Assembly: GCA_964527765.1 (NCBI GenBank) | Contig: CAZGQR010000008.1 | Span: forward strand, 14,264-78,263 | Source of the DNA: an uncultured Planctomycetia bacterium | GTDB lineage: Bacteria > Omnitrophota > Gorgyraeia > Tantalellales > Tantalellaceae | DNA: 64,000 nucleotides | Reading direction: 5' to 3' | Shown here: positions 17,677 through 30,912 of the stretch, one piece after another | How the letters are laid out: each line of letters begins with the position of its first letter | Numbering within the stretch: the stretch's first letter is position 1 | The notes under the pieces: generated by a model | What the model saw: the letters and a program-made list of their open reading frames with translations, nothing else | What the model was told of the DNA's origin: nothing | The model's database searches: none | Translations under genes and position numbers: made by a program

Positions 17677-18225
17677 TCAAGGTTTTTGAGGTTCCTTTAA
17701 AATGTTAAATCTTATTACCATCAAAGCTATTACACTGCCCGCGGCATTCAGGACGGCATCCCTCCAGTCAAAGACCCTGTTCGGCAGTAACAGCTGAATG
17801 ATCTCATCCAGAAAACCCGCACTCAGGCAGAACAGGGAACCGAAAAGATAGAGTTTTTTATCGAACCTGTCGATGTCTATTTTCAGCGCGTTATAAACAA
17901 AAACCCCCAGAAGCGCGTATTCGATCAGATGTATCTTCTCCACGGGGAATCTCGACAGTCTGTTCAGCGCCAGGAATATCCAGACGAACAGAAAGAATAA
18001 AAGGTAACTGTTCGGGGACCTTTCTTTTTTCACAAAGATCATATAAGCAAAGAGGCAGACAGCCGCGATGAAAAAGACGATGTACACCGGGATAGTGCCT
18101 TTACCGCCTAAAGATGCGTTAAACCCGTCCCAGATCCGCGGAGCGACCCCGAGAGTGGAATAAACAACCATCAGGTATAACGCGGTTATCGCCCACCAGA
18201 CTTTTCTCAGGTATTTCTTTCTCAT
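17677..18225 (-). CDS. VanZ-like family membrane protein
   Basis: It has 4-5 TM segments and contains EKIHLIEYALLGVF and GFLDEIIQLLLPNRVFDWRDAVLNAAG, matching the VanZ-family conserved core. The start was chosen at MRKKYL to avoid a long overlap with the upstream gene. Confidence 0.65.
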   Translation of the reverse strand: MRKKYLRKVWWAITALYLMVVYSTLGVAPRIWDGFNASLGGKGTIPVYIVFFIAAVCLFAYMIFVKKERSPNSYLLFFLFVWIFLALNRLSRFPVEKIHLIEYALLGVFVYNALKIDIDRFDKKLYLFGSLFCLSAGFLDEIIQLLLPNRVFDWRDAVLNAAGSVIALMVIRFNILKEPQKP

Positions 18226-18248
18226 AAGACCCTTCTTTAAACCGCGGT

Positions 18249-19430
18249 TTACTCCGCAGGCGCGGCCACTGCGGACCTTCTGCGGGTACATACGGTTTTG
18301 AGCGTTTTACCGAAAATTATAAGAAAATGCCTTATCAAATAGGGGTACACCATAAAACTCAACAGGACAAATTTCACCGTATCCCATATGCTGTCGAACA
18401 TGACCAGTTCGGCAATGTAACCCGTGCTTGTGCCGGCATTTCTTATCTTACGGAAGAACCAGCGGTCGCTTTTTTTTGCCGACCGCCCCAGGTCCTCGAA
18501 CACCGCCCCGGGCACAGGCGTGCCGAACATATTCTTCGTGAAAAGAAGCGCGTAATAAAGCGGTTTTCTTATCCTGTACTTCCCGGCGGCGCCTGTCACC
18601 TCTTCCCAGCTTATCTCCCCCTCATGCTTCCGGATAAACTCATTGATATCGACATACCATCTGACACCCGAGAAGCTGTGCTGCATGGATACGTGCAGGC
18701 ACTGATAAAGAAGCGTGTGGACGATATCCAGCGTGCGTAACCTCACACCGCCCGCGCTGAGCACTCTCGCACGCTCCAGGATCCCGTTCACATCCATATT
18801 GAGGATCCTGTTGTGCAGCATGCGCCCGATAAAACTCCTGTGAACATCCAGGCATATCCCGTCGTCCCGGACATACAGTTTCTGGGCCCTGTAATCATCG
18901 GGGTCCCCCTTGCCGTCAGAGGGCGTAAATCCCTGCGCCTTCAATATCCCGTGGACCTTCCGCGCGTCTTCCGGCCGCACCAGCAGGTCGATATCAGCCA
19001 TCTCCCTGAGGCCGATATCGCCGTACACATCCATCAGATAGGAAACCCCTTTCGTGAAGATCACGTCCACCCTTTCCTTCCGGAAAAGATCCGACAGCGA
19101 TCCGGCGGCATCGAGGTTCCTGACATTGTAAGCAAAGATCTCGGCGGTCCATTCCCTCAAACGGGCATTCACCCTTTCGGGGATACCGCCGAAACCCTGC
19201 AGGGACCTGTAAGCGAGCGGGGACACCTGATATACATTGGCGAGTTCCAGGAAGCGGTCCCAGTCCACTTTTCCCGAGCGAAGTATCGACCCCGCTTCCG
19301 ACCGCTCCTTTTCGCCTAGAGACGTCCTGGAAAAGAGGATGACGAGCTTTTCCTCGACAGCCCTCGGTCCGGAAGGGCCGAGATCAATGGCCGGAAAAAT
19401 ATCTATCTGCTGCGTGATCATTCTGGGCAT
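18249..19430 (-). CDS. Uncharacterised nucleotidyltransferase family protein (NTP_transf_5 / PF14907-like)
   Basis: It contains ADIDLLV and a surrounding GS...D.D-type Pol-beta-like nucleotidyltransferase core. It is about 390 aa with an alpha-helical C-terminus. This architecture is typical of the family that recurs in RiPP neighbourhoods. Confidence 0.65.
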   Translation of the reverse strand: MPRMITQQIDIFPAIDLGPSGPRAVEEKLVILFSRTSLGEKERSEAGSILRSGKVDWDRFLELANVYQVSPLAYRSLQGFGGIPERVNARLREWTAEIFAYNVRNLDAAGSLSDLFRKERVDVIFTKGVSYLMDVYGDIGLREMADIDLLVRPEDARKVHGILKAQGFTPSDGKGDPDDYRAQKLYVRDDGICLDVHRSFIGRMLHNRILNMDVNGILERARVLSAGGVRLRTLDIVHTLLYQCLHVSMQHSFSGVRWYVDINEFIRKHEGEISWEEVTGAAGKYRIRKPLYYALLFTKNMFGTPVPGAVFEDLGRSAKKSDRWFFRKIRNAGTSTGYIAELVMFDSIWDTVKFVLLSFMVYPYLIRHFLIIFGKTLKTVCTRRRSAVAAPAE

Positions 19431-20138
19431 TTAAAAAAGGTCTATAAAGCTGCTGCCGGTCACGTGGATATCGGACCCGGGACCGTACCGCCTTTCCGCT
19501 GTTTCGATGATCCTCTCAAGAAACCTGCCGGCAAACTCAGCGTTCCTGTCCCTGTGCCTGACATGTATATCGACGATAACACCGTGTTCCTTTTCCATCC
19601 TAACCGCGGCATTCGCGCTCCTGGATCCTCCCACAAAAGCATAGACCTTAAATCCGCCCCTGCTCTTGTGGACGGTGAAAAACATGCCTCTATAAAAAAG
19701 CTTTCTGGTGTTCCTATAAAGCGCGCCTTTGGAAAAAACCAAAAGGACCGGATCGAGGAATCTCCTCTTAATAAGAAGAGGTGTCAGGTTATGGCGTGAA
19801 AGAACGGCGATGACCCTGCCTGCCCGGCGCCGGAGGAAGGAATCCAGGGCAAAGACCCTGTCGCCTCTTTTTACGGTTACCACTTTCCCTCTGACCCCTG
19901 AAAAAGGGACCATCTCGCCTGAACCGGCAAGGGTATTATCGCCCTTGGTAACCAAATATTCCTCTTTCTTATTGACACTGAGAACACGATGGATAGCGGT
20001 CGTCCCGTTCCCGGAGATACTGTAAGTTATTATATCGCCTGACCCGATCAAACAGGGGTCGAATTCCTGACATATACATTCGTCCAGGGTTTTGATAAAA
20101 GGATACATGCTCTGGCCGTGAACAATGATCTTGCTCAT
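19431..20138 (-). CDS. Signal peptidase I-like (S26/S24 Ser-Lys) domain fused to a C-terminal domain of unknown function, possibly GNAT-like
   Basis: The N-terminus contains IVHGQSMYPF (Ser nucleophile box) and YLVTKGDNTLAGSGE (Lys / box-E-like). The C-terminal ~110 aa have no clear motif. It lies immediately downstream of the candidate precursor gene. Confidence 0.6.
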   Translation of the reverse strand: MSKIIVHGQSMYPFIKTLDECICQEFDPCLIGSGDIITYSISGNGTTAIHRVLSVNKKEEYLVTKGDNTLAGSGEMVPFSGVRGKVVTVKRGDRVFALDSFLRRRAGRVIAVLSRHNLTPLLIKRRFLDPVLLVFSKGALYRNTRKLFYRGMFFTVHKSRGGFKVYAFVGGSRSANAAVRMEKEHGVIVDIHVRHRDRNAEFAGRFLERIIETAERRYGPGSDIHVTGSSFIDLF

Positions 20139-20154
20139 AAAAAAATCAAGGTTA

Positions 20155-20454
20155 TTAAATGACGCCTAACCCGCTCTTGCACGTGTTAAAAGCGGCGTTG
20201 CCGTCTTTACAGGAAATAGTAGCCATCATGCCGTCCTTGCAGTGTTTCGGGGTCGGAGAATACTGGGATCCGGTAGAGCACCCCAGCGTGGCCGTACCCC
20301 CGTCCCTACATTGCCCGCCGGCCACCGCGCCGAAATCACAGAGCTGGCCCGCGCTGTGCCCGCTTTTGCAGTTGAACGCCTGGGCCCCCTTGATCGTCGC
20401 GCTGCTCAGATCGTGTGCGAGGGGCGGTGTGTATTTCTTCTTTTTCCTTTTCAT
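20155..20454 (-). CDS. Candidate RiPP/cofactor precursor peptide: 99 aa, Gly-rich, 7 Cys, seven C-x-x-G repeats
   Basis: It has a strong GAGGTGA Shine-Dalgarno sequence 6 nt upstream of the ATG. The sequence is MKRKKKKYTPPLAHDLSSATIKGAQAFN-CKSG-...-CDFG-...-CRDG-...-CSTG-...-CKDG-...-CKDG-...-CKSG-LGVI. It has no hydrophobic signal peptide. It is flanked by PqqD, peptidase, rSAM/SPASM and ABC exporter genes. Confidence 0.6.
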   Translation of the reverse strand: MKRKKKKYTPPLAHDLSSATIKGAQAFNCKSGHSAGQLCDFGAVAGGQCRDGGTATLGCSTGSQYSPTPKHCKDGMMATISCKDGNAAFNTCKSGLGVI

Positions 20455-20465
20455 GCATCACCTCT

Positions 20466-20738
20466 TCAGGTTTTATATCCGATAAATCCGGTCTTTTTCA
20501 TGTCTTTGATAAAAGCACTATAGTCCCCGGCGGCTTTATCGAGAGTGACATCATAGGCCTCTGTCATCTTTTCGACAATGCCGGGGGCCGCATTACCGCC
20601 GTCGCACAGGTCCCAGACGAACATGCCTGTCTCATTTATGCACAGCATATGCCCGTCCGAGGGATTGAAAAGAAGCGCTTCTTTCTGTTCTTTCCGCGCT
20701 ACAATATCAGGATTTCTCACGGGATATTTCTTTTTCAT
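20466..20738 (-). CDS. PqqD-family peptide chaperone (stand-alone RiPP recognition element)
   Basis: It reads MKKKYPVRNPDIVARKEQKEALLFNPSDGHMLCINETGMFVWDLCDGGN...IVEKMTEAYDV...FIKDMKKTGFI. It has a PqqD-like length and motif order. The start was chosen at MKKKY; the track ORF starts at 20810. Confidence 0.7.
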   Translation of the reverse strand: MKKKYPVRNPDIVARKEQKEALLFNPSDGHMLCINETGMFVWDLCDGGNAAPGIVEKMTEAYDVTLDKAAGDYSAFIKDMKKTGFIGYKT

Positions 20739-22452
20739 GGCCGGTCCTCTCTTTTTCAAGTTCGAACACCTTATCAGTGAACCACTCCGCGGTATCTCTA
20801 TGGGTAACAAAAAGAACGGTCATCTCCGGGAAACACGTCCTTATGCCTCTTAGGATATCGTCCTCCATCCCGGGGTCCAGAAAGGAGGTCGCCTCGTCCA
20901 TTATGAGTATCTTTGGTCTTCTCACCAGCGCTCTTGCGATCGCGACACGCTGCTTCTGCCCTCCCGAGAGAGACGACCCCAGCTCCCCTATGTCTGTATT
21001 ATAGCCGATGGACATCTCATCGGCAAGTTCGTCAAGCTTTGCCAGGCGCATGATATCCCGGACAAAACCTTCGGGCTTCTTTTCCCCCAAAAGCACATTT
21101 CTGATAATAGTATCATTGAATATGTACGGTTCCTGATGAACACAGGAGATATGCCTGGAAAAAGAGCTCATATTCATATCACGTATATCTATTCCCCCGA
21201 TCGAGATCCCCCCGCTCCAGGGTTTAAAAAGCCTGAGCAACAGGCCCAGAAGCGTCGTTTTACCCGCGCCGGAAGGCCCGGTTATCAGAGTCCATTTTCC
21301 GGCCGGCGCCACCAGATCCAATCCCCGGAAAAGAGCTTTGTCCCTGCTGTAGCCGAATGTAATATCGCTGGCCTCTATGTCCCCGCTGAACAAGGATACA
21401 TCCGGTACCCGTAAAGCTGGCCGGATCCCCTGGGGCTGCGTGATATCCCTGATGAAAACGGCATTTCTCTCTATTGACCGCCTTTCTTCGCTCAGGTTCT
21501 GGGCTATAGCTCCCAGGTTGTAAAACTCCGACAATATCATGGCGGAATACATGCTTACCGCGCTGAAAGAGCCGAGACTCAGTTTTCCGGTTATGATAAA
21601 ATATCCCCCTAAAAGCCAAAAAACCGCGGTACTCGCCTTCGAGAGGATATCGAATGCGATCCGTTCGTTCTGCCTGAAGACAGAAGACTTTCGCTCCATC
21701 CGGACCTTCCGCCGGAAAAGCTTCATTATCCTGTCCACTGCCCAGTCTTCCTTGAAAAAGCTCTTCACCAGTTTGATGTTTATAAGAAGATCATTGAACA
21801 GCGCGCCGTACCTGCTCGAAAAAAAGATATAACCGCTCTTTAGCCGCTGACGGCCCCGTGCCGCCCAGACCGTATGGATCGCCACCAGCGGCAGCGATAA
21901 AAGCACGAGCAGGCTCAGCTGCCAGGAAAGCAGGAACGAGAGGATAAAAAATACGGGTATCTTGACAAAGGAAAAGAAAGCCGGCAGTTCATAGAACACC
22001 AGGTTTTCGATGACTCCGCAGTCGTAATTCGCGAAAAAAGCGTTCTCCGCGGAACTCAGCTTTTTTATTTTCAGGTAATCGAGCCCGAAAAGCCTCCTCG
22101 CAAGATCATAGTTAACTTCAATGGAAAACTCTGTCCTGGCGCCGAGCATCAACCTCTCCGCCGCTATCTGCAATGCCTTCATCAACAGGAACACCAGAAG
22201 CCCGAGCACGGTGAACTTCACAAAAGCGCTAAGATCCCCGGCCATTATACCCTTATCCAGCGTGATCTTGGTTATGTAGATGATCAGAAGCCCGAGCGGA
22301 AAACTCAAAAGCTTCAGGATAAAGGCACGGGTCAATGAATTTCGGAACTTTCTCAGGATACCGAAAGCATAGACCAGAATGGTCCTGATATCCCCGAGAA
22401 CGGAAGTACCTCTCCCCAGCAGCGGATCCAGACTAAGTTTCAGGTCAAACAT
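20707..22452 (-). CDS. ABC exporter, fused permease/ATPase (type I exporter; no N-terminal C39 peptidase domain)
   Basis: It has six N-terminal TM segments, then Walker A GPSGAGKTTL, the signature LSGGQKQR and Walker B ILIMDEATS. Confidence 0.85.
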   Translation of the reverse strand: MFDLKLSLDPLLGRGTSVLGDIRTILVYAFGILRKFRNSLTRAFILKLLSFPLGLLIIYITKITLDKGIMAGDLSAFVKFTVLGLLVFLLMKALQIAAERLMLGARTEFSIEVNYDLARRLFGLDYLKIKKLSSAENAFFANYDCGVIENLVFYELPAFFSFVKIPVFFILSFLLSWQLSLLVLLSLPLVAIHTVWAARGRQRLKSGYIFFSSRYGALFNDLLINIKLVKSFFKEDWAVDRIMKLFRRKVRMERKSSVFRQNERIAFDILSKASTAVFWLLGGYFIITGKLSLGSFSAVSMYSAMILSEFYNLGAIAQNLSEERRSIERNAVFIRDITQPQGIRPALRVPDVSLFSGDIEASDITFGYSRDKALFRGLDLVAPAGKWTLITGPSGAGKTTLLGLLLRLFKPWSGGISIGGIDIRDMNMSSFSRHISCVHQEPYIFNDTIIRNVLLGEKKPEGFVRDIMRLAKLDELADEMSIGYNTDIGELGSSLSGGQKQRVAIARALVRRPKILIMDEATSFLDPGMEDDILRGIRTCFPEMTVLFVTHRDTAEWFTDKVFELEKERTGHEKEISREKS

Positions 22453-23246
22453 GAAAAAACGCTTTCGTGTTTTTTAAAATCCAGCATTCGAAACCCGACA
22501 CGTTCAACGATGTCGTTCATTATATCAAAAACATTCCTCAAGTATTCTCCCCTGTCCACAGCTCCCACGTTTTCGCGGAAAAAAGAGGCCGATTCGGGCA
22601 GGGCCCTGCGCAGGGCCTCGATCCCGGAAACGGAGCTTACCCCGTTCTTATCGGACTTGTTGAGCAGAAAAACGCCGCCTATCTCCCATTCCTCGGGATG
22701 GCCCCACAGAGGTAGAAAACACGGAAAACGCGCCGCGAAAAACCTCTCGCCGGACCTTTTTACCACGCAGAAATCATCATGTATCACATGCAGGCCTTTT
22801 TTCCCGGCCAGGGAACATATCGTGCTTTTTCCGCCCCCGCTCGGAGCGATGAAAAGATGGGCTTTACCGTTCATCACCACGGAAGCCGAATGTATAAAAA
22901 CTATATCCAGGACGCTTTGAAGATCCATGACCGAAAGATTAAGAAGCCTGTCCACCAAAAAATCGACAGATAGTCCCCTTTCGAAAAAACAGAATATTCT
23001 CCTTCTTTCGGCGTCATAAAGCTGCGCGACCCTTTTCCCGTGAACCGTTTTAATGTCGGCTCTCAGGGAACTTTTTTGTATCCTGACCGATATATCCGTC
23101 CTCCCGCACCTGTACAGGAATATATCAAGATCCGCTTGTTCCGCCTCGGACGGACCGGCTGGCTTGAATATCACCGGCCTTTCCTGAAAATTAAGAAAAT
23201 TCAGCCGTATGTTCGTTCCCAGAGCTTTATAACAGATCTTTTCCAT
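22440..23246 (-). CDS. HPr kinase/phosphorylase C-terminal-domain-like P-loop kinase (HprK-related)
   Basis: It contains FIHSASVVMNGKAHLFIAPSGGGKSTICSLA (P-loop) and HDDFCVV. It is 268 aa and has no HprK N-terminal domain. This type tailors peptides in RiPP clusters. Confidence 0.65.
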   Translation of the reverse strand: MEKICYKALGTNIRLNFLNFQERPVIFKPAGPSEAEQADLDIFLYRCGRTDISVRIQKSSLRADIKTVHGKRVAQLYDAERRRIFCFFERGLSVDFLVDRLLNLSVMDLQSVLDIVFIHSASVVMNGKAHLFIAPSGGGKSTICSLAGKKGLHVIHDDFCVVKRSGERFFAARFPCFLPLWGHPEEWEIGGVFLLNKSDKNGVSSVSGIEALRRALPESASFFRENVGAVDRGEYLRNVFDIMNDIVERVGFRMLDFKKHESVFSCLT

Positions 23247-24369
23247 ATCCCGCTCTCAGGGCTTCAGGCACGAGCCTGGTCGAAGGGAAAAAACCGTTAT
23301 CATAGGCTTCCTGACAGAACCAGTATGGAGCGAAAAGGTTCCCGGTGTTATGGTAGACCTCGGCTCTGCAGCTCCCCAGACATCTGTTCCTGAAAACACA
23401 GATACCGCAAACGCCCTCCAGGTTGAACGGTATTTCCTTCTTTATCCTGTTAAGAAGGGCGTTCTCGCGCCATATATGCCCCAATTTGGAAGGGTCTTTC
23501 CTGACCGTTCCGAAAACCAGTTTTTCATCAATATGGCCTATTCCGCATATAGATACGCTCCCGTCGGGCAGGATGCCGAGTATGTTCTTGATATTGCACA
23601 CCCCGCAGATCCCCGTGCGCACTTCCTCGACGCTCTTAAAAGCCACCGGTATGTCCAGATACAACAATCCACGGTATGATCTCCTGATGCCTTCAAGCTT
23701 CTCGGCGAATTCCAGGAGCTCTCTGACGGAAGGCACTTCCCCTCTTTCATGCAGTTCGGCTCCCCTGCCCAGGGGTGATATCGTATTCAATTTGATATTG
23801 TTCACCCCCAGTTCCCACATCGACTCTATAAACCCGATAATATCGGCAAAATTCTCCCTGTACATGCTTATTATCACCTGCGGGAACACGCCTTCCGCGA
23901 CCAGCGCCCTGATCCCTGCCAATGCCCTTTTGAACGCCCCCTTCCTTCCTCTGAAATGGTCGTTCATTTCCTCCAGGTGGCTGTCAAGGCTTACGGATAT
24001 ATAAAACGCCTTGTATTTTTTTATGGCGGAGGCCATCTTGCCGTCAATGAGGGTACCGTTCGTTTCTATGCCCACTTTTATATCCTCATCATGGCAAAAC
24101 CGTAATAGTTCTCCGATATCTTTCCGCAGCAACGGTTCGCCTCCGGTAAACTTCACATCCTTAAGCCCCAGTTCTTTCGCCGCTTTAATAATGGCGACTA
24201 TCTCCCCTGTCGATAGCTCCTCGTCATCATCCAGGCTTTCTTTCAAGGGAGGGGATATCCAACAATGCCTGCACCTCAGGTTACAATACCTGGTGGGATT
24301 TATATATAAACTTGTGAGATCTTTCCCGGGTATCCCGCTATCCGTGTTCCTCTTGTCACATAACCCCAT
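23227..24369 (-). CDS. Radical SAM/SPASM-domain enzyme 1
   Basis: It has a CNLRCRHC (CxxxCxxC) site near the N-terminus. The C-terminus has Cys clusters CGVCNIKN...SICGIG and CGICVFRNRCLGSCRAEVY (SPASM). The start was chosen at MGLCDK (24369), directly after the upstream stop. The track ORF is extended 5-prime. Confidence 0.8.
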   Translation of the reverse strand: MGLCDKRNTDSGIPGKDLTSLYINPTRYCNLRCRHCWISPPLKESLDDDEELSTGEIVAIIKAAKELGLKDVKFTGGEPLLRKDIGELLRFCHDEDIKVGIETNGTLIDGKMASAIKKYKAFYISVSLDSHLEEMNDHFRGRKGAFKRALAGIRALVAEGVFPQVIISMYRENFADIIGFIESMWELGVNNIKLNTISPLGRGAELHERGEVPSVRELLEFAEKLEGIRRSYRGLLYLDIPVAFKSVEEVRTGICGVCNIKNILGILPDGSVSICGIGHIDEKLVFGTVRKDPSKLGHIWRENALLNRIKKEIPFNLEGVCGICVFRNRCLGSCRAEVYHNTGNLFAPYWFCQEAYDNGFFPSTRLVPEALRAGYGKDLL

Positions 24370-24374
24370 ATAGC

Positions 24375-25472
24375 TTACCTCTGTTTTGACAAAACAATAT
24401 CCTCTTGCACCCTGAAGCCGTACAGATCCGAGAAAACAAGACAGGTCGACATGTTGATACCTCTCAAGTTCTCTCCGGCCGAATAATAAGCCGCCGCCCG
24501 GCATCCTCCGTTGCAATACGTGAGATAATCGCACCTGCTGCATTCTTTCCCGTATTTGACGAGAGGCTCATCCGCAAGCGACCTTATCTCGTTAAGGACT
24601 CCGGAATTCTCCCAGATATCCCTGAGCGACTGCTTCCTTGTGTCGCCGCAGACCAGCGTCCAGAACGCCGAACACGGGACCACCTTTCCGTCGGAACGTA
24701 TGGCCAGCATGGTATGTCCCGCGGGACAGGTAGAAAACGTCCCCCTGGCCCCCTTATCGCGGCCTTTCGCATAAAAGTCGCAAAGCATGTTTGTTTTCTG
24801 GCCGAGCGTCCCGCCCAGGCTGAAACCGGGATATTTCTCTTTCAACCGGAACATGGTCTCCATTATCCGGCGGTGCATCCCGCCCTCAAAGGTCAGTTCA
24901 TTGGCATAAACGGAAGCTCTGCCGCATGTCACGGCATCGCCGAAATCCATGCCCGAAAGGCCGAGGTCCATGGCCAGACGGACCATGTTCTCGATATCGT
25001 CCAGATTGTGTCTGTTGACTATGGCCTTGATGGAAACCGGAAGCTTTTCTTTTATGAGAAGTCTGACGCCGTTCAACGCTTTCTCGAATGAACCTTCCCC
25101 CCGCTGCCAGTCGTGGGCGGAAGCGCTGGAACCGTCGATGCTCACCTGCGTCCCGGCCAGGAACCTCATGCCTCTCATCCACTCCACGGCTTCCTCTCCG
25201 ATAAGGGTACCGTTGGTAAGGATGGTGACCCTCATCGGATAATTGTTAAGTATGCCCAGAAGTTCACGGATCCTCGGATAAATGAACGGCTCTCCGCCGA
25301 AGAGGTTCAGGCTAAAAACCTTCTCTGCCTTAAGCTGGTCCAGCACCTTTATTAATTCATCAAAGGAAAGCTGGTCTTTAAGATGCCAGGTGTCGGAAGT
25401 ATTGCAGTGCTTGCACCTCAGATTGCACCTGCCGGTAATGGCCAGGTCCACTATGGTGGGAAAAGGTCTCAT
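24375..25472 (-). CDS. Radical SAM/SPASM-domain enzyme 2
   Basis: It contains ITGRCNLRCKHC at residues 13-23. The C-terminus has CPAGHT...VVPCSAF...CGDT...CSRCDYLTYCNGGCRAAAY (twitch/SPASM). It has no N-terminal RRE. Confidence 0.85.
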   Translation of the reverse strand: MRPFPTIVDLAITGRCNLRCKHCNTSDTWHLKDQLSFDELIKVLDQLKAEKVFSLNLFGGEPFIYPRIRELLGILNNYPMRVTILTNGTLIGEEAVEWMRGMRFLAGTQVSIDGSSASAHDWQRGEGSFEKALNGVRLLIKEKLPVSIKAIVNRHNLDDIENMVRLAMDLGLSGMDFGDAVTCGRASVYANELTFEGGMHRRIMETMFRLKEKYPGFSLGGTLGQKTNMLCDFYAKGRDKGARGTFSTCPAGHTMLAIRSDGKVVPCSAFWTLVCGDTRKQSLRDIWENSGVLNEIRSLADEPLVKYGKECSRCDYLTYCNGGCRAAAYYSAGENLRGINMSTCLVFSDLYGFRVQEDIVLSKQR

Positions 25473-25491
25473 TTCAGGTTTTTCAATGTGT

Positions 25492-26269
25492 TTAATATTT
25501 TTCTCCGAATACCGACGCGCAGTGCTTAAATATTATCAGGCCCTCGGAATTAAAAAGCCATATTATCCTGTAAAAATCCTCTTTGGACAACGCGGTTGCC
25601 AATTTCTTGTTCACATCCCGCCGGACGGCTTTCAGGTCTCTTGTGCCGTCAAAAAATTTTACAAGATCCATAAGGGCTTTATCATCAAGACCGGGATTCG
25701 CAAAATCACGGCGAGAGGTAACCAGGCCGCATTTGCTCGTAACGTCCTTTACGAAATGAAGTTCCCTTTTTTCCCTGGAATAAAAAAGCGTCTTCAACCT
25801 GGTAAGAGGATTTGAAACGAACTTCATATCCTCCTTAAGCATTTCCATGATATACTCGTCAAGGCCTTTTTTCCTTTCCTTTTCGGGCTTCCGGCCCCTG
25901 GGCAGGTAGGCAAAGGATATTTGCCAGCCGTCCCTGCAGTAAAATTTTCTGCACGCCCCCGGCCTGTCCGGATAGATCGAGCATCTGTTGTCCTTGCCCA
26001 GGTACACGCAGGACCTGTCAGGTCTCCTCTCAAGCCACCACTCCCTGTTAACGCAGCTGGAGTCCTTGTTTTCGCATTCCTTCCTGGTCAGCCTGCATAC
26101 CTCCCTGGCCTTGTATTTTCCGGACCGGAACTCCTTCTCGCTGAGATTTACGTCATACGTCCTGCAGCAGATCGCCTCGCACAGGTCGCGGACCTCATCG
26201 CAGTTCCCGTTGCCGAAGAAAAGCCTTTTGTTTTTCGCGTCCAGTTTTAATTTTTGAGATCTCTTCATG
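25492..26269 (-). CDS. YkgJ-family (UPF0153, CxxCxxCC-type) putative Fe-S/Zn-binding protein with a C-terminal PqqD-like tail
   Basis: It contains CDEVRDLCEAICC and CVYLGKDNRCSIYPDRPGACRKFYC, matching the YkgJ pattern. The C-terminal ~100 aa (LMDLVKFFDGTRDLKAVRRDV...YRIIWLFNSEGLI) resemble a PqqD/RRE fold. The start is MKRSQK, with a GGGGGC Shine-Dalgarno sequence. The track ORF is over-extended. Confidence 0.6.
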
Positions 26270-26341: not shown

Positions 26342-27403
26342 TCAAAGGTATGCCTTGACCGCGTCGATGACCCTTTCCTGTTCTTGCGCGCTGAGGGAAG
26401 GGTAGATAGGTATGGACAAACAGCCGGAATAGGCCTCGTCCGTGCTCCGGAAACCGGACCTGAGCTCCAGGTACCGGTGCAGCGGTTTATACACGGGCCT
26501 TTTGCAGATAATGCCCTTTTCACCCATCCGTGAGATCGCCGCCGATATATCCTTTTTTGTCCTTACTACGTACCGGTAATAAACATGGTCGAATTCGCCC
26601 TTCGGCAACACCAGGTCCAGGTCCTTGAAAGCTTTATCATAACGCACGGCTATTTCTTTTCTCCGTCGGATAAATCCGGGGAGTTTTTCAAGCTGCGCCA
26701 CTCCCATGGCGGCCTGCACGTCCGTCATCTTGTAATTGAAGCGGACCCTGTAGTCCTCTTTCTCGTCATAATCGCGGAGGTCCCGCGCGAGGCGAAGGAT
26801 CTCCTCGTCATCGGAAAGAAGCGCCCCGCCTTCGCCGCAGGCCAGCATCTTATTGGCGTAAAAGGAAAGGATGCCGAAACGCCCGATACTTCCCGCCCGC
26901 CTGTCCCCGTACATCGCCCCGATAGACTGGGCGCAATCCTCAACAACGGGAACACCCGCCTCCTTGATCCTCCCGATGTCAGCGGGATTTCCGAACATGT
27001 GCGGCACGATAACGGCACCGGCGGCATCCGTTATATTATCTTTAACGCTCTCCGGGGAAATATTAAAACTTTCCGGTTCTATATCGCAGAGGCGGGGCCC
27101 GGCACCTGTCTGATATACGGCATTCAACGGCGCGCTGCACACATAGGACGGAAGCAGCACATCATCACCCGGACCCACTCCCAGGGCCGCAAGGCCCAGA
27201 TGCAGGGCTGATGTGCCTGAACTGGTCACGACCGCCGCCCTGACGCCCGCGAACCGGGCCAGGCGCTCCTCAAGCTCCCTTACCCTGTCCCCCTGGGTAA
27301 TATGTCCTGACTTTATTACTTCCGAAACTGCCTTTAACTCTTCATCTCCCAGAGTAGGCCTCGAATGCGGAATGATCTTTTCGGCCATATATGATCCTTT
27401 CAT
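26342..27403 (-). CDS. DegT/DnrJ/EryC1/StrS-family PLP-dependent sugar aminotransferase
   Basis: It contains a TSSGTSALHL...ED.AQS...G region and the catalytic-Lys region SFYANKML. Confidence 0.85.
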   Translation of the reverse strand: MKGSYMAEKIIPHSRPTLGDEELKAVSEVIKSGHITQGDRVRELEERLARFAGVRAAVVTSSGTSALHLGLAALGVGPGDDVLLPSYVCSAPLNAVYQTGAGPRLCDIEPESFNISPESVKDNITDAAGAVIVPHMFGNPADIGRIKEAGVPVVEDCAQSIGAMYGDRRAGSIGRFGILSFYANKMLACGEGGALLSDDEEILRLARDLRDYDEKEDYRVRFNYKMTDVQAAMGVAQLEKLPGFIRRRKEIAVRYDKAFKDLDLVLPKGEFDHVYYRYVVRTKKDISAAISRMGEKGIICKRPVYKPLHRYLELRSGFRSTDEAYSGCLSIPIYPSLSAQEQERVIDAVKAYL

Positions 27404-27408
27404 TCTTG

Positions 27409-28029
27409 CTACTCGATATCCAGCAGATACCTTAGCGCCCGGAATCCCTCGGCATATTTGACCTTGGCCTGGAATCCGCGAAAATTGGCAACCGCAATAA
27501 CACTCTCGACCATATCCAGACTGGTAGGGTATTCCCTTTCCACCTGCGACCTGTGAAGCTTTAGAAGTTTGCCCTTTTCATGCAGTTCTTCCCCGATATC
27601 CACGAAGATATCCGGCTCGAAGTTCCTGGACGTGTAATCCTCGTAAAAGATGACCTTCTTGTGATATCGCGCGGCGACGATGGTGCTTTCGGTAAGATAC
27701 CTGTGATCCTGGTGAGTGTCGTCGGGGTAATTGACGAAGATCAGGTCAGGATCGCATTCCTTTATGGCTTCTTCTATCTTCTCTATAAGTTCTTTACTGG
27801 CCGTGAGGCGCGTATCCATGAACCCGCCCCAGTAGACCTTTTTCACCCCCAGAAATTCAGCGGCTTTTTCCTGCTCCTTTATCCTGACCTCCGCTCCCCC
27901 GCTGAAATCACCATGGGTCGCTATGAAAAAACGTATATCCGCCTTTCGCCGTTTTTTCAGCTTCAAAAGCGTCCCCCCGCATCCGTACTCTATGTCATCC
28001 GGGTGCGCGCCTATCGCTAATATATTCAT
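27409..28029 (-). CDS. PIG-L/LmbE-family N-acetyl-sugar deacetylase
   Basis: It contains LAIGAHPDDIEYGCGGT and HQDH, which are zinc-dependent LmbE-like motifs. Confidence 0.8.
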   Translation of the reverse strand: MNILAIGAHPDDIEYGCGGTLLKLKKRRKADIRFFIATHGDFSGGAEVRIKEQEKAAEFLGVKKVYWGGFMDTRLTASKELIEKIEEAIKECDPDLIFVNYPDDTHQDHRYLTESTIVAARYHKKVIFYEDYTSRNFEPDIFVDIGEELHEKGKLLKLHRSQVEREYPTSLDMVESVIAVANFRGFQAKVKYAEGFRALRYLLDIE

Positions 28030-28712
28030 TGCTTTCTCCCTTCTCTTATAATGTCAAGACTTTTCCCGCCGCAGCAGAACAGTAGGTCCACGACCGACAT
28101 GTGCGGATAGAATCCGTTGAATATCTGGCTGTAACCGGGGTGCGAATAAGCCTGGAATTCAAGCGCGATCCCGCTTTTCCGGAACCGTTCTTTATCAAGG
28201 TAGTCGTCCCCGCCCGCTCCGGACACATACGTATCGGCTTTCAATTTTTCACAAATATCGACCAGTCTCTCCGTCTTGCCCGTTCCAACCCCTAAAGAAG
28301 AACTCCTGATGAGCTCCGCGCCTATTCCCAGCGTCTCTTTCAAATAACGGATGAAATGAATGTTAACATCCGCCAGGAACTCCCATTCCCTGTTAAAAGT
28401 ATCACTGAAAAACGGAAGATATTCCTTGAAATAAGGCGCGCGCGAGTAATTGAGCTCCAGCCCCTTGAGATGCTTGTTTCGCCAGGGCTGACGGCCATCT
28501 ATCCTGACGTCCTTGAGCAGCTGGCCGAACTCATACAGGACCGGCACCGTGAGCCACTGCCATCCTTCGGCATTGCGGATCTTGTTCCGGTTCTGCCACT
28601 CGTTCTTCTTGTACTGCACGTCATCCAGCAGGACAAAAACATCCGCCCGGTCCATTTTATCAAAATATCCCAGCCAGGGCAAATATTGCGGTTGATGAAT
28701 GGCTACTTTCAT
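28026..28712 (-). CDS. WbqC-like family protein
   Basis: It contains MKVAIHQPQYLPWLGYFDKM...DDVQY, the characteristic N-terminus of the WbqC-like family found in O-antigen loci. Confidence 0.65.
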   Translation of the reverse strand: MKVAIHQPQYLPWLGYFDKMDRADVFVLLDDVQYKKNEWQNRNKIRNAEGWQWLTVPVLYEFGQLLKDVRIDGRQPWRNKHLKGLELNYSRAPYFKEYLPFFSDTFNREWEFLADVNIHFIRYLKETLGIGAELIRSSSLGVGTGKTERLVDICEKLKADTYVSGAGGDDYLDKERFRKSGIALEFQAYSHPGYSQIFNGFYPHMSVVDLLFCCGGKSLDIIREGRKQ

Positions 28713-29734
28713 GTTCTCAGAAAATACCCCTTGTTTTGAACGACCCAGTCAATGAGGGCCTGCACGCCCTCTTCGACCTTGACTTTCGGCTTCCAGCCGA
28801 GGTCCTTGCGGGCTTTTTCGATATCACAGACAAACGTTTTCTGGTCTCCCGGGCGCCAATCGTCGAAACCGTACCGGACTTTCCTGTCCAGGGACCGCTC
28901 CAGCATGGAGATCAGCTCAAGCAGAGACAGGACATTTCCCGCCCCCCCGCCTATATTGTAAGCATTCCCGCCGGCTTTACCGATCTTATCGATCGCCTTC
29001 AGATAACAATCAACAAGATCACCTATCCAAAGGATATCTCTGGTCTGTTTGCCGTCGCCGTAAATAGTGATGGGGCTTCCCAGAACGGAGCATATCGTAA
29101 AGTGCGCCACCCAGCCCTGGTCCTCCACGCCAAACTGGCGCGGCCCATAAATGCATGACTGGCGGAAATCCACAGTCCTTAAACCGTATATCCTGGCGTA
29201 ATCCACTACATATTGATCCGCGGCGCCCTTGGAACAGCCATACGGAGAATGAAAATCCAGGGTCCTGTCCTCCGGGATGCCGCGAGGCAAGGACTTATAC
29301 CGATATTTTCCCTCTTTCTCGACCACTTCCAGATCATCCATGGCCCCGTAGACCTTGTTGGTCGAAGCGTTAAGAAGGACCGCCTCCGGCCGGAACCTCC
29401 TTACGCCCTCGCATATGTTAAACGTTCCCAGGGCATTGATCTCAAAATCTTCCCTCGGGTCCGACACGGAGAGGGTCACCGCGACCTGTGCCGCCATGTG
29501 CAGGACAACATCAATGCCCTTGCAATCAGTAAAACATGCCTTGACCTGCCTAAAATCCCTTATATCCCCTTTTAAAAAAGTGAATTTCGCCCGCTGTTCC
29601 AGCCATTCAAGGTTTTTTCCGGCGCCTTTACGGGACAAGTTATCAAAAATAATGACCTCATGACCTTCTTTAAGGAACCGTTCCGCGGAGTTTATCCCTA
29701 TAAAACCGGCCCCGCCGGTGATCAAGACTTTCAT
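28709..29734 (-). CDS. NAD-dependent sugar epimerase/dehydratase (CDP-paratose 2-epimerase-like SDR)
   Basis: It contains a TGGAGFIG Rossmann motif, a YxxxK site (YGCSKGAADQY) and a PRQFGVEDQGWVAHF region. Confidence 0.85.
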   Translation of the reverse strand: MKVLITGGAGFIGINSAERFLKEGHEVIIFDNLSRKGAGKNLEWLEQRAKFTFLKGDIRDFRQVKACFTDCKGIDVVLHMAAQVAVTLSVSDPREDFEINALGTFNICEGVRRFRPEAVLLNASTNKVYGAMDDLEVVEKEGKYRYKSLPRGIPEDRTLDFHSPYGCSKGAADQYVVDYARIYGLRTVDFRQSCIYGPRQFGVEDQGWVAHFTICSVLGSPITIYGDGKQTRDILWIGDLVDCYLKAIDKIGKAGGNAYNIGGGAGNVLSLLELISMLERSLDRKVRYGFDDWRPGDQKTFVCDIEKARKDLGWKPKVKVEEGVQALIDWVVQNKGYFLRT

Positions 29735-30912
29735 TTCCTTACCTCGCTTCCTGTTCTCGCGCTGAGCAACTCCCTGTATAACGCGTCCAGTGCGTCCACC
29801 ATTTTTTCCGCGGAATAATCGGCAAGCGCTTTTTTCCTTTCCTTCTCCCCCATGTGACGGGCCTCTTCAGTGTTGTCAAGAAGCTCATCCAGCGCTTTCG
29901 ATATGGCATCGGAAGAAGCCGACTCTATCAGAATACCGGCATTATCAAAAACAAGGGAAGAGACGCCGCCGACACGCGTCGCTATTACAGGTTTTCCCAA
30001 AAACATGGCTCCGACCAGCGTCCGCCCCATACCTTCGTTTAGCGAAGGCAGGACAAAAATATCAAGCGCGTTAAGCACGGCTCCGGTATTCTCCTGCCAC
30101 GGAATTATGTGAAATCTGTCCGTGATATCCGCGGCTGTCAGCATTTTCAGATATTTCCCGCGAAGCGGGCCATCGCCGGCTAAAAGAAAATGTATGTCTC
30201 TCTTCTTTTCCAGCTGTTTTACCGCCGCTTCTATAAAATACTCATATCCTTTTATTTCTATGAAACGCCCTATGGACCCTACCAGAACCTTGTCCGGCGG
30301 TATCCCGAGTTTTTTTCTCCAATCGACGCCGCTATTCACTTCACGTTCCAGATTTTCAAACTCTATGCCGCTGGGGATAGCGGTATAAAGATCTTCACCG
30401 CCGATCTCGTAACACAACCATTCATAACACTCCGCGCCGGTAAGGCCGATGATCTTGTCCGTTATCCGCGCGGCCATCCTCTCGGCCGATAATATCAGGT
30501 CGGTCAATATTCTTCCGAAATATTCGTAAAACACGTGCCCGTGAGGCGTAAAAACTATTTTTTCAATTCCCGCGCACCTGGCCGCGACACGGCATATGAA
30601 TCCCGCTTTATGCGAATGAGCGTGCATTATATCATATTTATTCCGGCGCATGAAACGCAGTATCTTAAAGAAAGCTATAATATCCCTTACCGGATGAACA
30701 TTTCTCACAAGGTCTTTTTGCGAAATAAAACGAACGCCCGCTTTTTTAGCCCTTTCAATAAGATCTTCATAAGGGTTTTCCGTATACCCGAATAAAAGAT
30801 CTACCGCGTATCCTTTTTGCGCGAGCCCGATAACGCTCAAAAGCGTATTCTCCGAAGAACCGCCTTTATCAAGCCTGGTAATCGCGTGTAATATTTTAAT
30901 TTTCTTTCTCAT
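29731..30912 (-). CDS. Glycosyltransferase family 4 (GT-B)
   Basis: It has a C-terminal EGMGRTLVGAMFLGKPVIATRVGG EX7E-like motif. Confidence 0.8.
   Translation of the reverse strand: MRKKIKILHAITRLDKGGSSENTLLSVIGLAQKGYAVDLLFGYTENPYEDLIERAKKAGVRFISQKDLVRNVHPVRDIIAFFKILRFMRRNKYDIMHAHSHKAGFICRVAARCAGIEKIVFTPHGHVFYEYFGRILTDLILSAERMAARITDKIIGLTGAECYEWLCYEIGGEDLYTAIPSGIEFENLEREVNSGVDWRKKLGIPPDKVLVGSIGRFIEIKGYEYFIEAAVKQLEKKRDIHFLLAGDGPLRGKYLKMLTAADITDRFHIIPWQENTGAVLNALDIFVLPSLNEGMGRTLVGAMFLGKPVIATRVGGVSSLVFDNAGILIESASSDAISKALDELLDNTEEARHMGEKERKKALADYSAEKMVDALDALYRELLSARTGSEVRK

What the first reader, a model, noticed from the sequence alone, without database searches (positions are those of the whole stretch)
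18249..23246. HprK-like kinase and PF14907 nucleotidyltransferase as probable peptide-tailoring enzymes
The 268-aa protein has the HprK C-terminal P-loop (APSGGGKST...HDDF) but no HPr-binding N-terminal domain. Kinases of this type phosphorylate precursor Ser residues in some lasso pathways. The 393-aa ADIDLLV-containing nucleotidyltransferase belongs to a family repeatedly seen next to RiPP genes, with unknown chemistry. The precursor's Ser/Thr-rich inter-Cys spacers and C-terminal region offer many acceptor sites. Phosphorylation or nucleotidylation combined with radical crosslinking would be an unusual pairing.
Basis: inference. Interest (0 to 1): 0.6.

Follow-up and report, generated by a model that had tools for sequence, protein, structure and literature searches.

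The report
Lasso-type kinase/nucleotidyltransferase pair in radical-SAM peptide operon
Two enzymes known from lasso-peptide pathways, a peptide kinase and a partner that decorates the added phosphate, sit inside a conserved radical-SAM peptide operon of Omnitrophota bacteria, which predicts an uncharacterised phosphate-decorated, cross-linked peptide.

Summary
A 268-aa P-loop protein (22440-23246, minus strand) carries APSGGGKST and HDDF. A 393-aa PF14907 nucleotidyltransferase (18249-19430, minus strand) carries ADIDLLV. Both lie in one tightly packed minus-strand operon (about 17677-26268). It also encodes two radical SAM/SPASM enzymes, an ABC exporter, PqqD, a 99-aa precursor with seven CxxG repeats, an S26-type peptidase and VanZ.

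The 268-aa protein belongs to Pfam PF27840 (ScmC). It has a PEPCK/HprK-like fold and the His-Lys-Asp-Asp catalytic motif of lasso-peptide kinases.

The whole cassette is syntenic in all 12 evaluable Omnitrophota loci. In 63 independent PF14907 loci from metagenomes, 13 of 18 with at least 3 kb upstream also encode an HprK-like protein. These loci are either lasso clusters or radical-SAM/PqqD clusters.

The pairing is therefore a recurrent, portable module, already characterised in the lasso peptide pseudomycoidin. There PsmK phosphorylates the C-terminal Ser and PsmN adds hexose to the phosphate.

Two things are new here: the radical-SAM host pathway, and the lack of the C-terminal Ser that nearly all related precursors have.

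Verdict: a new variant of a known kind, of moderate interest.

The parts
22440..23246 (-). 268-aa ScmC-family (PF27840), HprK/PEPCK-fold P-loop protein; the predicted peptide kinase. Key residues: H119 (22890-22892), Walker A APSGGGKST (22821-22847), D157-D158 within HDDF (22770-22781).
18249..19430 (-). 393-aa PF14907 (NTP_transf_5) Pol-beta-fold nucleotidyltransferase. K127, G128, D146 and D148 are invariant (ADIDLLV at 18978-18998), and the D-x-H motif at 195-197 is also conserved. It has a hydrophobic C-terminal helix at about residues 354-373.
19431..20138 (-). 235-aa soluble S26B-type (Ser/His) signal-peptidase-like protein with motifs GQSMYP, AIHRV and TKGDN, plus a C-terminal domain of about 130 aa of unknown function. 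It is the probable leader peptidase. Its stop codon abuts the NTase start codon, and the two are fused in relatives.
   Evidence: (TIGR02228, 52.2 bits against a cutoff of 51.85)
20155..20454 (-). 99-aa precursor peptide. The leader is MKRKKKKYTPPLAHDLS...AQA. The core has seven C-x-x-G repeats. The C-terminus is ...CKSGLGVI, with no C-terminal Ser.
20466..20738 (-). 90-aa PqqD-family RiPP recognition element. Its best NCBIfam hits are ScmD, GeoRSP PqqD and lasso PqqD, all below the curated cutoffs.
20707..22452 (-). 581-aa ABC exporter with fused permease and ATPase. It overlaps both of its neighbours.
23227..24369 (-). 380-aa radical SAM/SPASM enzyme, ScmF-like (316 bits against a cutoff of 400).
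24375..25472 (-). 365-aa radical SAM/SPASM enzyme, ScmE-like (221 bits against a cutoff of 400).
25492..26268 (-). 258-aa protein with a weak CxxCxxCC (PF03692) match. It is present in only some clade members.
17677..18291 (-). VanZ-like membrane protein, the last gene of the conserved cassette.

Best explanation
The two genes form a maturation and decoration module of a radical-SAM RiPP operon. The same module is known from Firmicutes-type lasso pathways (PsmK/PsmN).

Proposed sequence of events:
1. The PqqD protein binds the lasso-like YxxP leader of the 99-aa precursor.
2. The ScmC-family P-loop protein, using H119, K140 and D157/D158, transfers the gamma-phosphate of ATP or GTP to a Ser/Thr hydroxyl of the precursor.
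3. The two SPASM radical-SAM enzymes cross-link the seven CxxG cysteines.
4. The PF14907 enzyme, using the D146-x-D148 metal site, adds a further group to the phosphate. By analogy this is a hexose or other sugar from an NDP-sugar, or a nucleotidyl group.
5. The NTase works next to the S26-type peptidase, to which it is translationally coupled and in relatives fused. That peptidase removes the leader, probably after the conserved A-x-A-like site (AQA) just before the first Cys.
6. The ABC transporter exports the product.

What is shown: the gene content, the motifs, the folds, the homology to kinases found in lasso clusters, and the strong co-occurrence.

What is inferred: every catalytic step, their order, and the acceptor residue. 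The acceptor cannot be the canonical C-terminal Ser in this clade. The candidates are the two conserved hydroxyls: the L-[ST] position in the leader and the Ser/Thr of the first CxSG repeat.

My estimates: about 0.7 that both enzymes act on the peptide, about 0.55 that the 268-aa protein phosphorylates it, and about 0.35-0.4 that the NTase then modifies that phosphate.
For: Operon embedding: genes overlap or abut, and gene calls are identical in public contigs.

Fold and motifs of the kinase: Foldseek matches ATP-PEPCK and HprK/P. His-Lys-Asp-Asp is invariant or nearly so. That motif is the experimentally required catalytic set of the lasso kinases (PMC9266682). PsmK D158A/D159A is inactive.

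Homology: hhalign gives 98.4% (E 6e-15) to HprK-like proteins from lasso clusters and 99.7% (E 1e-26) to those from radical-SAM clusters.

NTase: PF14907 at E 2e-50, with K, G and DxD invariant. The fold neighbours are ANT(2'')-Ia, LnuA and MenT. The ANT(2'') entries 5cfs and 4xje are the ones reported as structural matches for PsmN, and PsmN D134A/D136A is inactive.

Co-occurrence: the cassette is complete in 12 of 12 evaluable Omnitrophota loci, down to about 30% kinase identity. A rearranged version is in L021. A lasso version is in L026. Of dereplicated metagenomic PF14907 loci, 13 of 18 with at least 3 kb upstream and 11 of 14 with at least 4 kb upstream carry an HprK-like gene. The HprK-like superfamily has only about 10,800 representatives among 1.84 billion proteins.

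Precursors: precursors in related radical-SAM loci with the kinase and NTase carry a YxxPx[LIF] leader, and 5 of 6 distinct types end in Ser, as do the two clearest lasso-cluster precursors (L026, L028).

Peptidase link: peptidase-NTase fusions occur in P0018, P0023, P0040 and L062. This parallels the B2-NTase fusions reported in lasso clusters (PMC8498205).
Against: No biochemical data exist for any ScmC-family or radical-SAM-linked PF14907 protein.

The window precursor and 11 of 12 clade relatives lack the C-terminal Ser that defines the substrate of the characterised kinases.

Only the C-terminal 150 residues align with lasso-cluster kinases, and the N-domain is clade-specific.

The Pfam Hpr_kinase models do not match, and no solved structure is detectable by sequence.

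PsmN's direct activity was never shown in vitro, and an indirect role through host glycosyltransferases was not excluded.

PF14907 also occurs without kinases in glycan and nucleotide-type clusters. About a quarter of well-flanked loci lack an HprK-like gene.
Confidence: 0.55

Rival explanations
1. The ScmC-family protein is a core, non-decorating component of radical-SAM maturation. It could be an ATP-driven chaperone or scaffold working with PqqD. It could also be a kinase whose phosphate is transient, for example activating Ser/Thr for elimination or serving as a timing signal, so that it is absent from the final product.
For: NCBIfam treats ScmC as one of the named components of the SynChlorMet cassette, and the window proteins' best hits are ScmC, ScmD, ScmE and ScmF. 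ScmC-like genes accompany two radical-SAM genes and PqqD without any PF14907 gene in L007/L022. The C-terminal Ser acceptor is missing in this clade. The core is rich in Cys and Ser/Thr.
Against: The catalytic His-Lys-Asp-Asp set is fully conserved, which argues for real phosphotransfer. No lyase or cyclase-like gene is in the cassette. The tight pairing with an NTase, whose only characterised relative acts on the phosphate, argues that the phosphate persists.
Confidence: 0.2
2. The PF14907 enzyme, possibly together with the peptidase-like protein and VanZ, acts on a cell-envelope glycan or a nucleotide-sugar rather than on the peptide. Its position in the operon would then reflect the neighbouring polysaccharide genes.
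For: PF14907 genes lie in a teichoic-acid or polysaccharide cluster in L105. They also lie in an Azospirillum EPS cluster and a Rhizobium APRT/radical-SAM/Prs cluster. The NTase ORF of L062 continues into Poly_export/SLBB domains. The window cassette directly abuts WbqC, PIG-L, DegT, an epimerase and glycosyltransferases in every Omnitrophota locus and in L039.
Against: The NTase lies downstream of the precursor and abuts the peptidase gene, separated from the sugar genes by eight RiPP genes. Of well-flanked PF14907 loci, 72-79% carry an HprK-like gene, mostly with PqqD, and most lack sugar genes. PsmN-dependent adducts are on the peptide.
Confidence: 0.12
3. The NTase nucleotidylates a peptide hydroxyl directly (AMPylation or UMPylation), independently of the kinase. 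The kinase modifies a different site.
For: The closest solved folds are O-nucleotidyltransferases acting on hydroxyl groups (ANT(2'')-Ia, LnuA) and the MenT toxins. The DxD and D-x-H metal-site motifs are intact. Some PF14907 loci lack a kinase.
Against: In the only genetic study, the NTase-dependent products were hexose adducts. They appeared on the phosphorylated forms, and psmK deletion left only unmodified peptide. Kinase co-occurrence is very strong.
Confidence: 0.1

Closest known systems
PsmK/PsmN of the pseudomycoidin lasso cluster (Bacillus pseudomycoides; PMC6993621)
   Same: An HprK-like kinase with an essential Asp-Asp pair, plus an 'uncharacterised nucleotidyltransferase' with an essential DxD and an ANT(2'')-like fold. 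Both clusters also have a PqqD-type recognition protein, a YxxP leader and an ABC exporter. I found the same HprK-like/PF14907 pair in lasso clusters (L026; L028, L040, L061, L078, L087 and L100).
   Different: The class-defining enzymes here are two radical SAM/SPASM proteins, not B2/C. The leader peptidase is S26-type, not transglutaminase-like. The precursor lacks the C-terminal Ser. The kinase shares only about 23% identity, limited to the C-domain. PsmN's membership of PF14907 is inferred from its description, not tested here.
PadeK / ThcoK / SyanK lasso-peptide kinases (reviewed in PMC9266682 and PMC8498205)
   Same: A catalytic His-Lys-Asp-Asp motif, and action on the linear precursor before the core modification.
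   Different: Those kinases act on a strictly conserved C-terminal Ser, which the window precursor lacks. No NTase is needed in the paeninodin cluster.
SynChlorMet (SCM) cassette ScmC/ScmD/ScmE/ScmF (NCBIfam TIGR04248-04251; Pfam PF27840)
   Same: The best NCBIfam hit of four window proteins is the corresponding Scm model. The kinase-like protein is PF27840 in the precomputed tables.
   Different: All four scores fall below the curated equivalog cutoffs: 21 against 125, 45 against 100, 221 against 400 and 316 against 400. The window cassette adds the PF14907 NTase, an S26 peptidase, an ABC exporter, VanZ and a CxxCxxCC protein, and it has an identifiable precursor.
HPr kinase/phosphorylase (HprK/P)
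   Same: The P-loop kinase fold shared with PEPCK, and the same order of motifs: His, then Walker A, then Asp-Asp.
   Different: There is no match to Pfam Hpr_kinase_N or Hpr_kinase_C and no PDB hit at sequence level. The N-domain and the genomic context are different.
Pol-beta-fold O-nucleotidyltransferases ANT(2'')-Ia and LnuA, and MenT toxins
   Same: The fold of the catalytic core and the G-x(n)-DxD metal site.
   Different: Sequence identity is only 11-16%. The window protein has large helical N- and C-terminal extensions, and its substrates are unknown.

Membership tests
PF14907 NTP_transf_5 (uncharacterised nucleotidyltransferase) | Full-length match to the Pfam model above the gathering score | tested here: met
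   E 2.3e-50, 171.9 bits against 31.2; model positions 2-249 of 249
PF14907 NTP_transf_5 (uncharacterised nucleotidyltransferase) | Pol-beta NTase catalytic signature (KG...DxD plus a third acidic residue followed by His) | tested here: met
   K127, G128, D146 and D148 are invariant in 44 sequences, and [DE]-x-H is at 195-197. The fold matches ANT(2'')-Ia, LnuA and MenT.
PsmN-type phospho-peptide decorating enzyme | Adds hexose to a phospho-Ser of the peptide in a kinase-dependent way | not testable with these tools
   Only genetic data for PsmN exist. What I could test is the context analogy: an adjacent HprK-like gene in 13 of 18 well-flanked loci.
HPr kinase/phosphorylase (HprK/P) | Match to Pfam Hpr_kinase_C and Hpr_kinase_N | tested here: not met
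   No Pfam family at E <= 0.01. A profile search of PDB sequences finds only generic P-loop hits.
HPr kinase/phosphorylase (HprK/P) | PEPCK-like P-loop kinase fold with His, then Walker A, then Asp-Asp | tested here: met
   Foldseek matches PEPCK (E about 1e-6) and HprK/P entries 1ko7, 1knx and 1jb1 (E about 2-5e-5). Motifs are shown.
Lasso-type HprK-like peptide kinases (PadeK/ThcoK/PsmK) | Conserved catalytic His-Lys-Asp-Asp | tested here: met
   H119 and K140 are invariant, D157 is at least 90% conserved, and position 158 is D or E. The motif definition comes from PMC9266682.
Lasso-type HprK-like peptide kinases (PadeK/ThcoK/PsmK) | Detectable homology to kinases encoded in lasso clusters | tested here: met
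   hhalign 98.4%, E 6e-15, 142 columns, against six HprK-like proteins taken from loci with a lasso Asn-synthetase-type cyclase gene. Their own activity is untested.
Lasso-type HprK-like peptide kinases (PadeK/ThcoK/PsmK) | The cognate precursor ends in Ser, the phospho-acceptor | tested here: not met
   The window precursor ends in ...GLGVI, and only 1 of 12 clade precursors ends in Ser. In related radical-SAM loci, 5 of 6 precursor types do end in Ser.
Lasso-type HprK-like peptide kinases (PadeK/ThcoK/PsmK) | Lasso core genes (B2 transglutaminase-like peptidase, C Asn-synthetase-like cyclase) in the cluster | tested here: not met
   Neither is present in the window cassette. Both are present in L026.
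SynChlorMet cassette (ScmC/D/E/F) | Each protein scores above the curated NCBIfam equivalog cutoff | tested here: not met
   ScmC 21.2 against 125, ScmD 44.9 against 100, ScmE 220.9 against 400, ScmF 316.4 against 400. All four are nonetheless the best or near-best hits.
SynChlorMet cassette (ScmC/D/E/F) | Co-located ScmC-like, PqqD-like and two radical SAM/SPASM genes | tested here: met
   PF27840:ScmC appears in the precomputed tables.

The most novel reading that the evidence does not exclude
The Omnitrophota cassette makes a new kind of RiPP: a multiply cross-linked (7 x CxxG) radical-SAM peptide that carries a phosphodiester-linked sugar or nucleotide on an internal Ser/Thr rather than on a C-terminal Ser. 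More generally, the recognition protein, kinase, NTase and leader peptidase would form a portable unit that has been swapped between lasso and radical-SAM pathways. On this reading the clade-specific N-domain of the kinase re-targets the phosphorylation site.
Probability: 0.3. Interest if true: 0.72.

Novelty: new variant of a known kind. Interest (0 to 1): 0.55.

Why it matters
Phosphorylation is rare among peptide natural products. A 2025 survey lists only microcin C, two lasso peptides, phospeptin, one lanthipeptide and a few others, with no radical-SAM class (PMC12639078). If this module is active here, it defines phospho-decorated radical-SAM peptides and gives the large, uncharacterised ScmC (PF27840) and PF14907 families a testable function. 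It also shows that leader-recognition and decoration modules move between RiPP classes, which is useful for engineering. The rule that nearly all related precursors end in Ser, while this clade's do not, offers a clean experiment on how the kinases choose their site.

Tried and rejected
Literature searches for 'SynChlorMet', ScmC-F, 'NTP_transf_5', and HprK with radical SAM, RiPP and PqqD found nothing relevant. 'HPr kinase' with radical SAM and precursor peptide gave only a lasso mention. The Haft & Basu 2011 paper (tried by DOI) and the Zhu 2016 JBC paper (tried by PMC id) are not held.

Profile searches of PDB sequences gave only generic P-loop hits or noise for both families.

One context look-up of a distant ScmC representative (P0099) landed on a 1.6-kb contig and was uninformative.

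I considered that the sugar genes upstream (WbqC, PIG-L, DegT) supply the NTase's donor. They are adjacent in all clade loci and in L039. However, L039 also has a WecA-type transferase there, so plain envelope-glycan synteny is at least as likely, and the question is left open.

I considered a lanthipeptide-like route of phosphorylation followed by elimination. It is kept only as part of a rival explanation, because no lyase or cyclase is present.

I did not obtain the PsmN sequence, so its PF14907 membership is inferred from the paper's description, its DxD mutants and the shared ANT(2'') structural matches.

The NJ trees are rough distance trees without support values or an HprK/P outgroup.
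Full report
**1. What is in the sequence**

The finding spans part of a single minus-strand operon. Reading from its 5' end, at high coordinates, the genes are:
- a 258-aa protein with a weak CxxCxxCC match (25492-26268)
- a 365-aa radical SAM/SPASM enzyme (24375-25472)
- a 380-aa radical SAM/SPASM enzyme (23227-24369)
- the 268-aa P-loop protein (22440-23246)
- a 581-aa ABC exporter (20707-22452)
- a 90-aa PqqD protein (20466-20738)
- a 99-aa Cys-rich precursor (20155-20454)
- a 235-aa S26-type peptidase-like protein (19431-20138)
- the 393-aa nucleotidyltransferase (18249-19430)
- a VanZ-like protein (17677-18291)

Neighbouring genes overlap by 13-43 nt or abut. The peptidase stop codon and the NTase start codon are adjacent. 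Public contigs that carry the identical genes are called the same way.

The quoted motifs are exact: APSGGGKST, HDDF and ADIDLLV. The flanks are housekeeping genes below the cassette (response regulator, tgt, yajC, secDF). Above it are sugar-modifying genes (DegT, PIG-L, WbqC, an epimerase and glycosyltransferases). Close relatives are labelled Candidatus Omnitrophota.

**2. The 268-aa protein**

The local Pfam copy gives no hit. The precomputed tables assign the protein to PF27840 'ScmC'. NCBIfam gives weak hits to HprK-related kinase A and to SynChlorMet protein ScmC.

The AlphaFold model is confident (pLDDT 84.6, pTM 0.81). Its best PDB matches are ATP-dependent PEP carboxykinases over the whole length, and the catalytic domain of HPr kinase/phosphorylase (1ko7, 1knx, 1jb1, 1kkl). 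This is the PEPCK/HprK P-loop kinase fold.

In ten clade members (24-86% identical to the window protein), H119, the Walker A motif A-P-S-G-G-G-K-[ST]-T and K140 are invariant. D157 is nearly invariant, and position 158 is always Asp or Glu. His-Lys-Asp-Asp is the motif shown by mutagenesis to be essential in the lasso-peptide kinases (PMC9266682). PsmK D158A/D159A is inactive (PMC6993621).

Profile-profile comparison links the clade to two groups. One is HprK-like proteins from lasso clusters (98.4%, E 6e-15). The other, more closely related, is HprK-like proteins from other radical-SAM clusters (99.7%, E 1e-26). In both cases only the C-terminal 150 or so residues align. The N-terminal domain of about 110 residues is clade-specific.

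An exhaustive HMMER search finds about 10,800 superfamily representatives but only 28 at E <= 1e-30. No member is detectable by sequence in the PDB.

HPr binds the catalytic C-domain, as shown by 1kkl, which is a 166-residue fragment.

**3. The 393-aa protein**

It is a full-length PF14907 member (E 2.3e-50). K127, G128, D146 and D148 are invariant across 44 homologues, and a [DE]-x-H motif lies at 195-197.

The model is very confident (pLDDT 90.8). Its nearest solved folds are MenT1/MenT3, ANT(2'')-Ia, LnuA and TM1012. The ANT(2'') entries (5cfs, 4xje) are the ones reported as the Phyre matches of PsmN.

**4. Comparative genomics**

*Omnitrophota clade.* In genome contigs, every evaluable Omnitrophota locus keeps the order: two radical-SAM genes, ScmC, ABC, PqqD, precursor, peptidase, NTase, VanZ. 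That is 12 distinct loci, with kinase identity falling to about 30%.

*Rearranged and lasso versions.* A rearranged cluster in an Omnitrophota single-cell genome (L021) retains the NTase, an S24 peptidase, ScmC-like and PqqD genes, and several radical-SAM genes. L026 is a lasso cluster with the order HprK-like, PF14907, PqqD, transglutaminase-like B2, Asn-synthetase-like C and a glycosyltransferase. L007/L022 have the radical-SAM genes, PqqD, ScmC-like gene and a precursor but no NTase.

*Survey starting from the NTase.* I fetched 80 metagenomic PF14907 loci at 22-34% identity and dereplicated them to 63. An HprK-like gene is present in 13 of 18 loci with at least 3 kb upstream, and in 11 of 14 with at least 4 kb upstream. 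Five of these 13 loci are radical-SAM/PqqD clusters, five have a lasso Asn-synthetase-type cyclase gene, and three have PqqD but neither of those markers. Given how rare the HprK-like superfamily is, this is far beyond chance.

*Trees.* A rough NJ tree separates HprK-like proteins from radical-SAM clusters from those in lasso clusters. The window clade lies on the radical-SAM side. The NTase tree is star-like, with RiPP contexts throughout.

*Non-RiPP contexts.* Some PF14907 members lie elsewhere. One is in a glycerophosphotransferase/glycosyltransferase cluster (L105). Others are in an Azospirillum EPS cluster and a Rhizobium APRT/radical-SAM/Prs cluster. The family is therefore heterogeneous.

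**5. Precursors and peptidase**

The clade precursors share a leader of the form K-K-K-K-Y-x-P-P-[LIV]-x-x-x-L-[ST]. They have an A-x-A-like site just before the first Cys, and a core of five to seven C-x-x-G repeats.

In other radical-SAM clusters with the kinase and NTase, the precursors are short (51-59 aa). They carry the motif Y-x-x-P-x-[LIF], which to my knowledge is the lasso leader recognition motif. Five of six distinct types end in Ser:
- L027: ...NVAS
- L038 type: ...TSTTS
- L039: ...VYGS
- L062: ...QQGS
- L097: ...PKAS
- the exception, L053: ...AASG

The two clearest lasso-cluster precursors, in L026 and L028, also end in Ser. This matches the C-terminal Ser rule of the characterised kinases and strongly suggests that these radical-SAM peptides are phosphorylated at the C-terminus.

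The window clade breaks the rule: 1 of 12 precursors ends in Ser. Only two hydroxyl positions are conserved there. The leader L-[ST] position is conserved in 11 of 13 aligned precursors, and the Ser/Thr of the first CxSG repeat in 12 of 13 (the 13 include L007).

The 235-aa protein has the Ser/His/GDN motifs of S26B signal peptidases and just passes TIGR02228. S24/S26 peptidases are present in six other clusters of this type. They are fused to the NTase in P0018, P0023, P0040 and L062. This mirrors the B2-NTase fusions reported for lasso clusters (PMC8498205).

**6. Mechanism**

The best-supported reading is that this is the lasso-type two-step decoration module transplanted into a radical-SAM pathway. 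In step one, PqqD-assisted phosphorylation of the precursor is carried out by the ScmC-family kinase. In step two, the PF14907 enzyme elaborates the phosphate, working with the S26-type leader peptidase before ABC export.

The only experimental precedent is pseudomycoidin. There PsmK (poly)phosphorylates the C-terminal Ser, and PsmN is needed for one or two hexoses on the phosphate. PsmN was never assayed in vitro.

The gene content, motifs, folds and co-occurrence are shown here. All catalytic steps, the acceptor site and the donor are inferred.

Three rivals are scored in the report sections:
- The ScmC protein is a core or transient-phosphate maturation factor.
- The NTase acts on envelope glycan.
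- The NTase nucleotidylates the peptide independently of the kinase.

**7. Comparison with known systems and novelty**

The system works like PsmK/PsmN, but it is not a lasso system. It has no B2 or C genes, its precursor has no C-terminal Ser, and its leader peptidase is of a different type.

It is the nearest relative of the bioinformatically defined SynChlorMet cassette, but it fails all four curated cutoffs and has extra genes.

I found no report of a characterised radical-SAM RiPP with an HprK-like kinase. A late-2025 list of phosphorylated RiPPs contains none.

I rate it a new variant of a known kind, with interest 0.55.

Noticed in passing
window 19431-20138 (-) and its junction with 18249-19430: This is a soluble S26B-type signal-peptidase-like protein with motifs GQSMYP, AIHRV and TKGDN, no N-terminal membrane anchor, and an unassigned C-terminal domain of about 130 aa. 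Its stop codon abuts the NTase start codon. Relatives are fused to the NTase: P0018 (599 aa), P0023 (621 aa), the S24-NTase fusion P0040, and L062 2682-5387.
   Followed up: partly
window 20155-20454 (-); precursors of L004-L019: The precursor family has a Lys-rich start, a Y-x-P-P-[LIV] leader similar to the lasso YxxPxL motif, a conserved A-x-A-like site (AQA) just before the first Cys, and five to seven C-x-x-G repeats. The A-x-A site fits cleavage by a signal-peptidase-type enzyme. The cross-link chemistry of the two SPASM enzymes is unknown.
   Followed up: partly
L027 5752-5928; L038 9496-9657; L039 8131-8304; L062 1422-1586; L097 6942-7112; L026 and L028 lasso precursors: Short precursors in other radical-SAM clusters with the HprK-like and PF14907 genes almost all end in Ser and carry YxxPx[LIF] leaders. 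The two clearest lasso-cluster precursors, in L026 and L028, do too. This predicts C-terminal phosphorylation outside the lasso class. The window clade is the exception.
   Followed up: partly
window 26342-30912 (-); L039 2758-6639: The WbqC, PIG-L and DegT genes, with an epimerase and glycosyltransferases, sit directly upstream of the cassette in every Omnitrophota locus. They also sit upstream in L039, whose cassette has a different architecture and which additionally has a WecA-type Glycos_transf_4 gene there. This could be a sugar-donor supply for the NTase or simply conserved envelope-glycan synteny.
   Followed up: partly
window 25492-26268 (-): This 258-aa protein has a weak CxxCxxCC (PF03692) match at the head of the operon. 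It is present in only some clade members and absent from L006, L009 and L012-L014. Its role is unknown.
   Followed up: no
window 18249-18370 (-) (NTase residues about 354-373): The NTase ends in a strongly hydrophobic helix, VLLSFMVYPYLIRHFLIIF (Kyte-Doolittle mean 1.83). This suggests membrane association next to the ABC exporter and VanZ.
   Followed up: no
L062 2682-5387: A single 901-aa ORF combines an S24 peptidase, PF14907 and Poly_export/SLBB (Wza-like) domains. It is either a real three-way fusion or an assembly artefact, and it hints at a link between this NTase family and polysaccharide export.
   Followed up: no
L021 7819-19591: An Omnitrophota single-cell genome carries a larger relative of the cassette: the NTase on the opposite strand, an S24 peptidase, an ScmC-like gene, three PqqD domains (one fused to a radical-SAM enzyme), four radical-SAM genes and an ABC exporter.
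   Followed up: partly
L105 1307-8628; plasmids NZ_CP039640.1 and NZ_CP017243.1: PF14907 genes also occur without kinases in teichoic-acid or EPS-type clusters, and in a Rhizobium cluster with the order APRT, radical SAM, NTase and PRPP synthase. The family is therefore not RiPP-specific.
   Followed up: partly
L024 5977-6150: A Gammaproteobacteria MAG encodes a 58-aa Cys-rich peptide (MNTNRHYIKPHITV...CNCAPDARCRCSAGCDDTC) with a YxxPxI leader, about 0.9 kb downstream of the HprK-like match in that locus. It may be another precursor type served by this kinase family.
   Followed up: no
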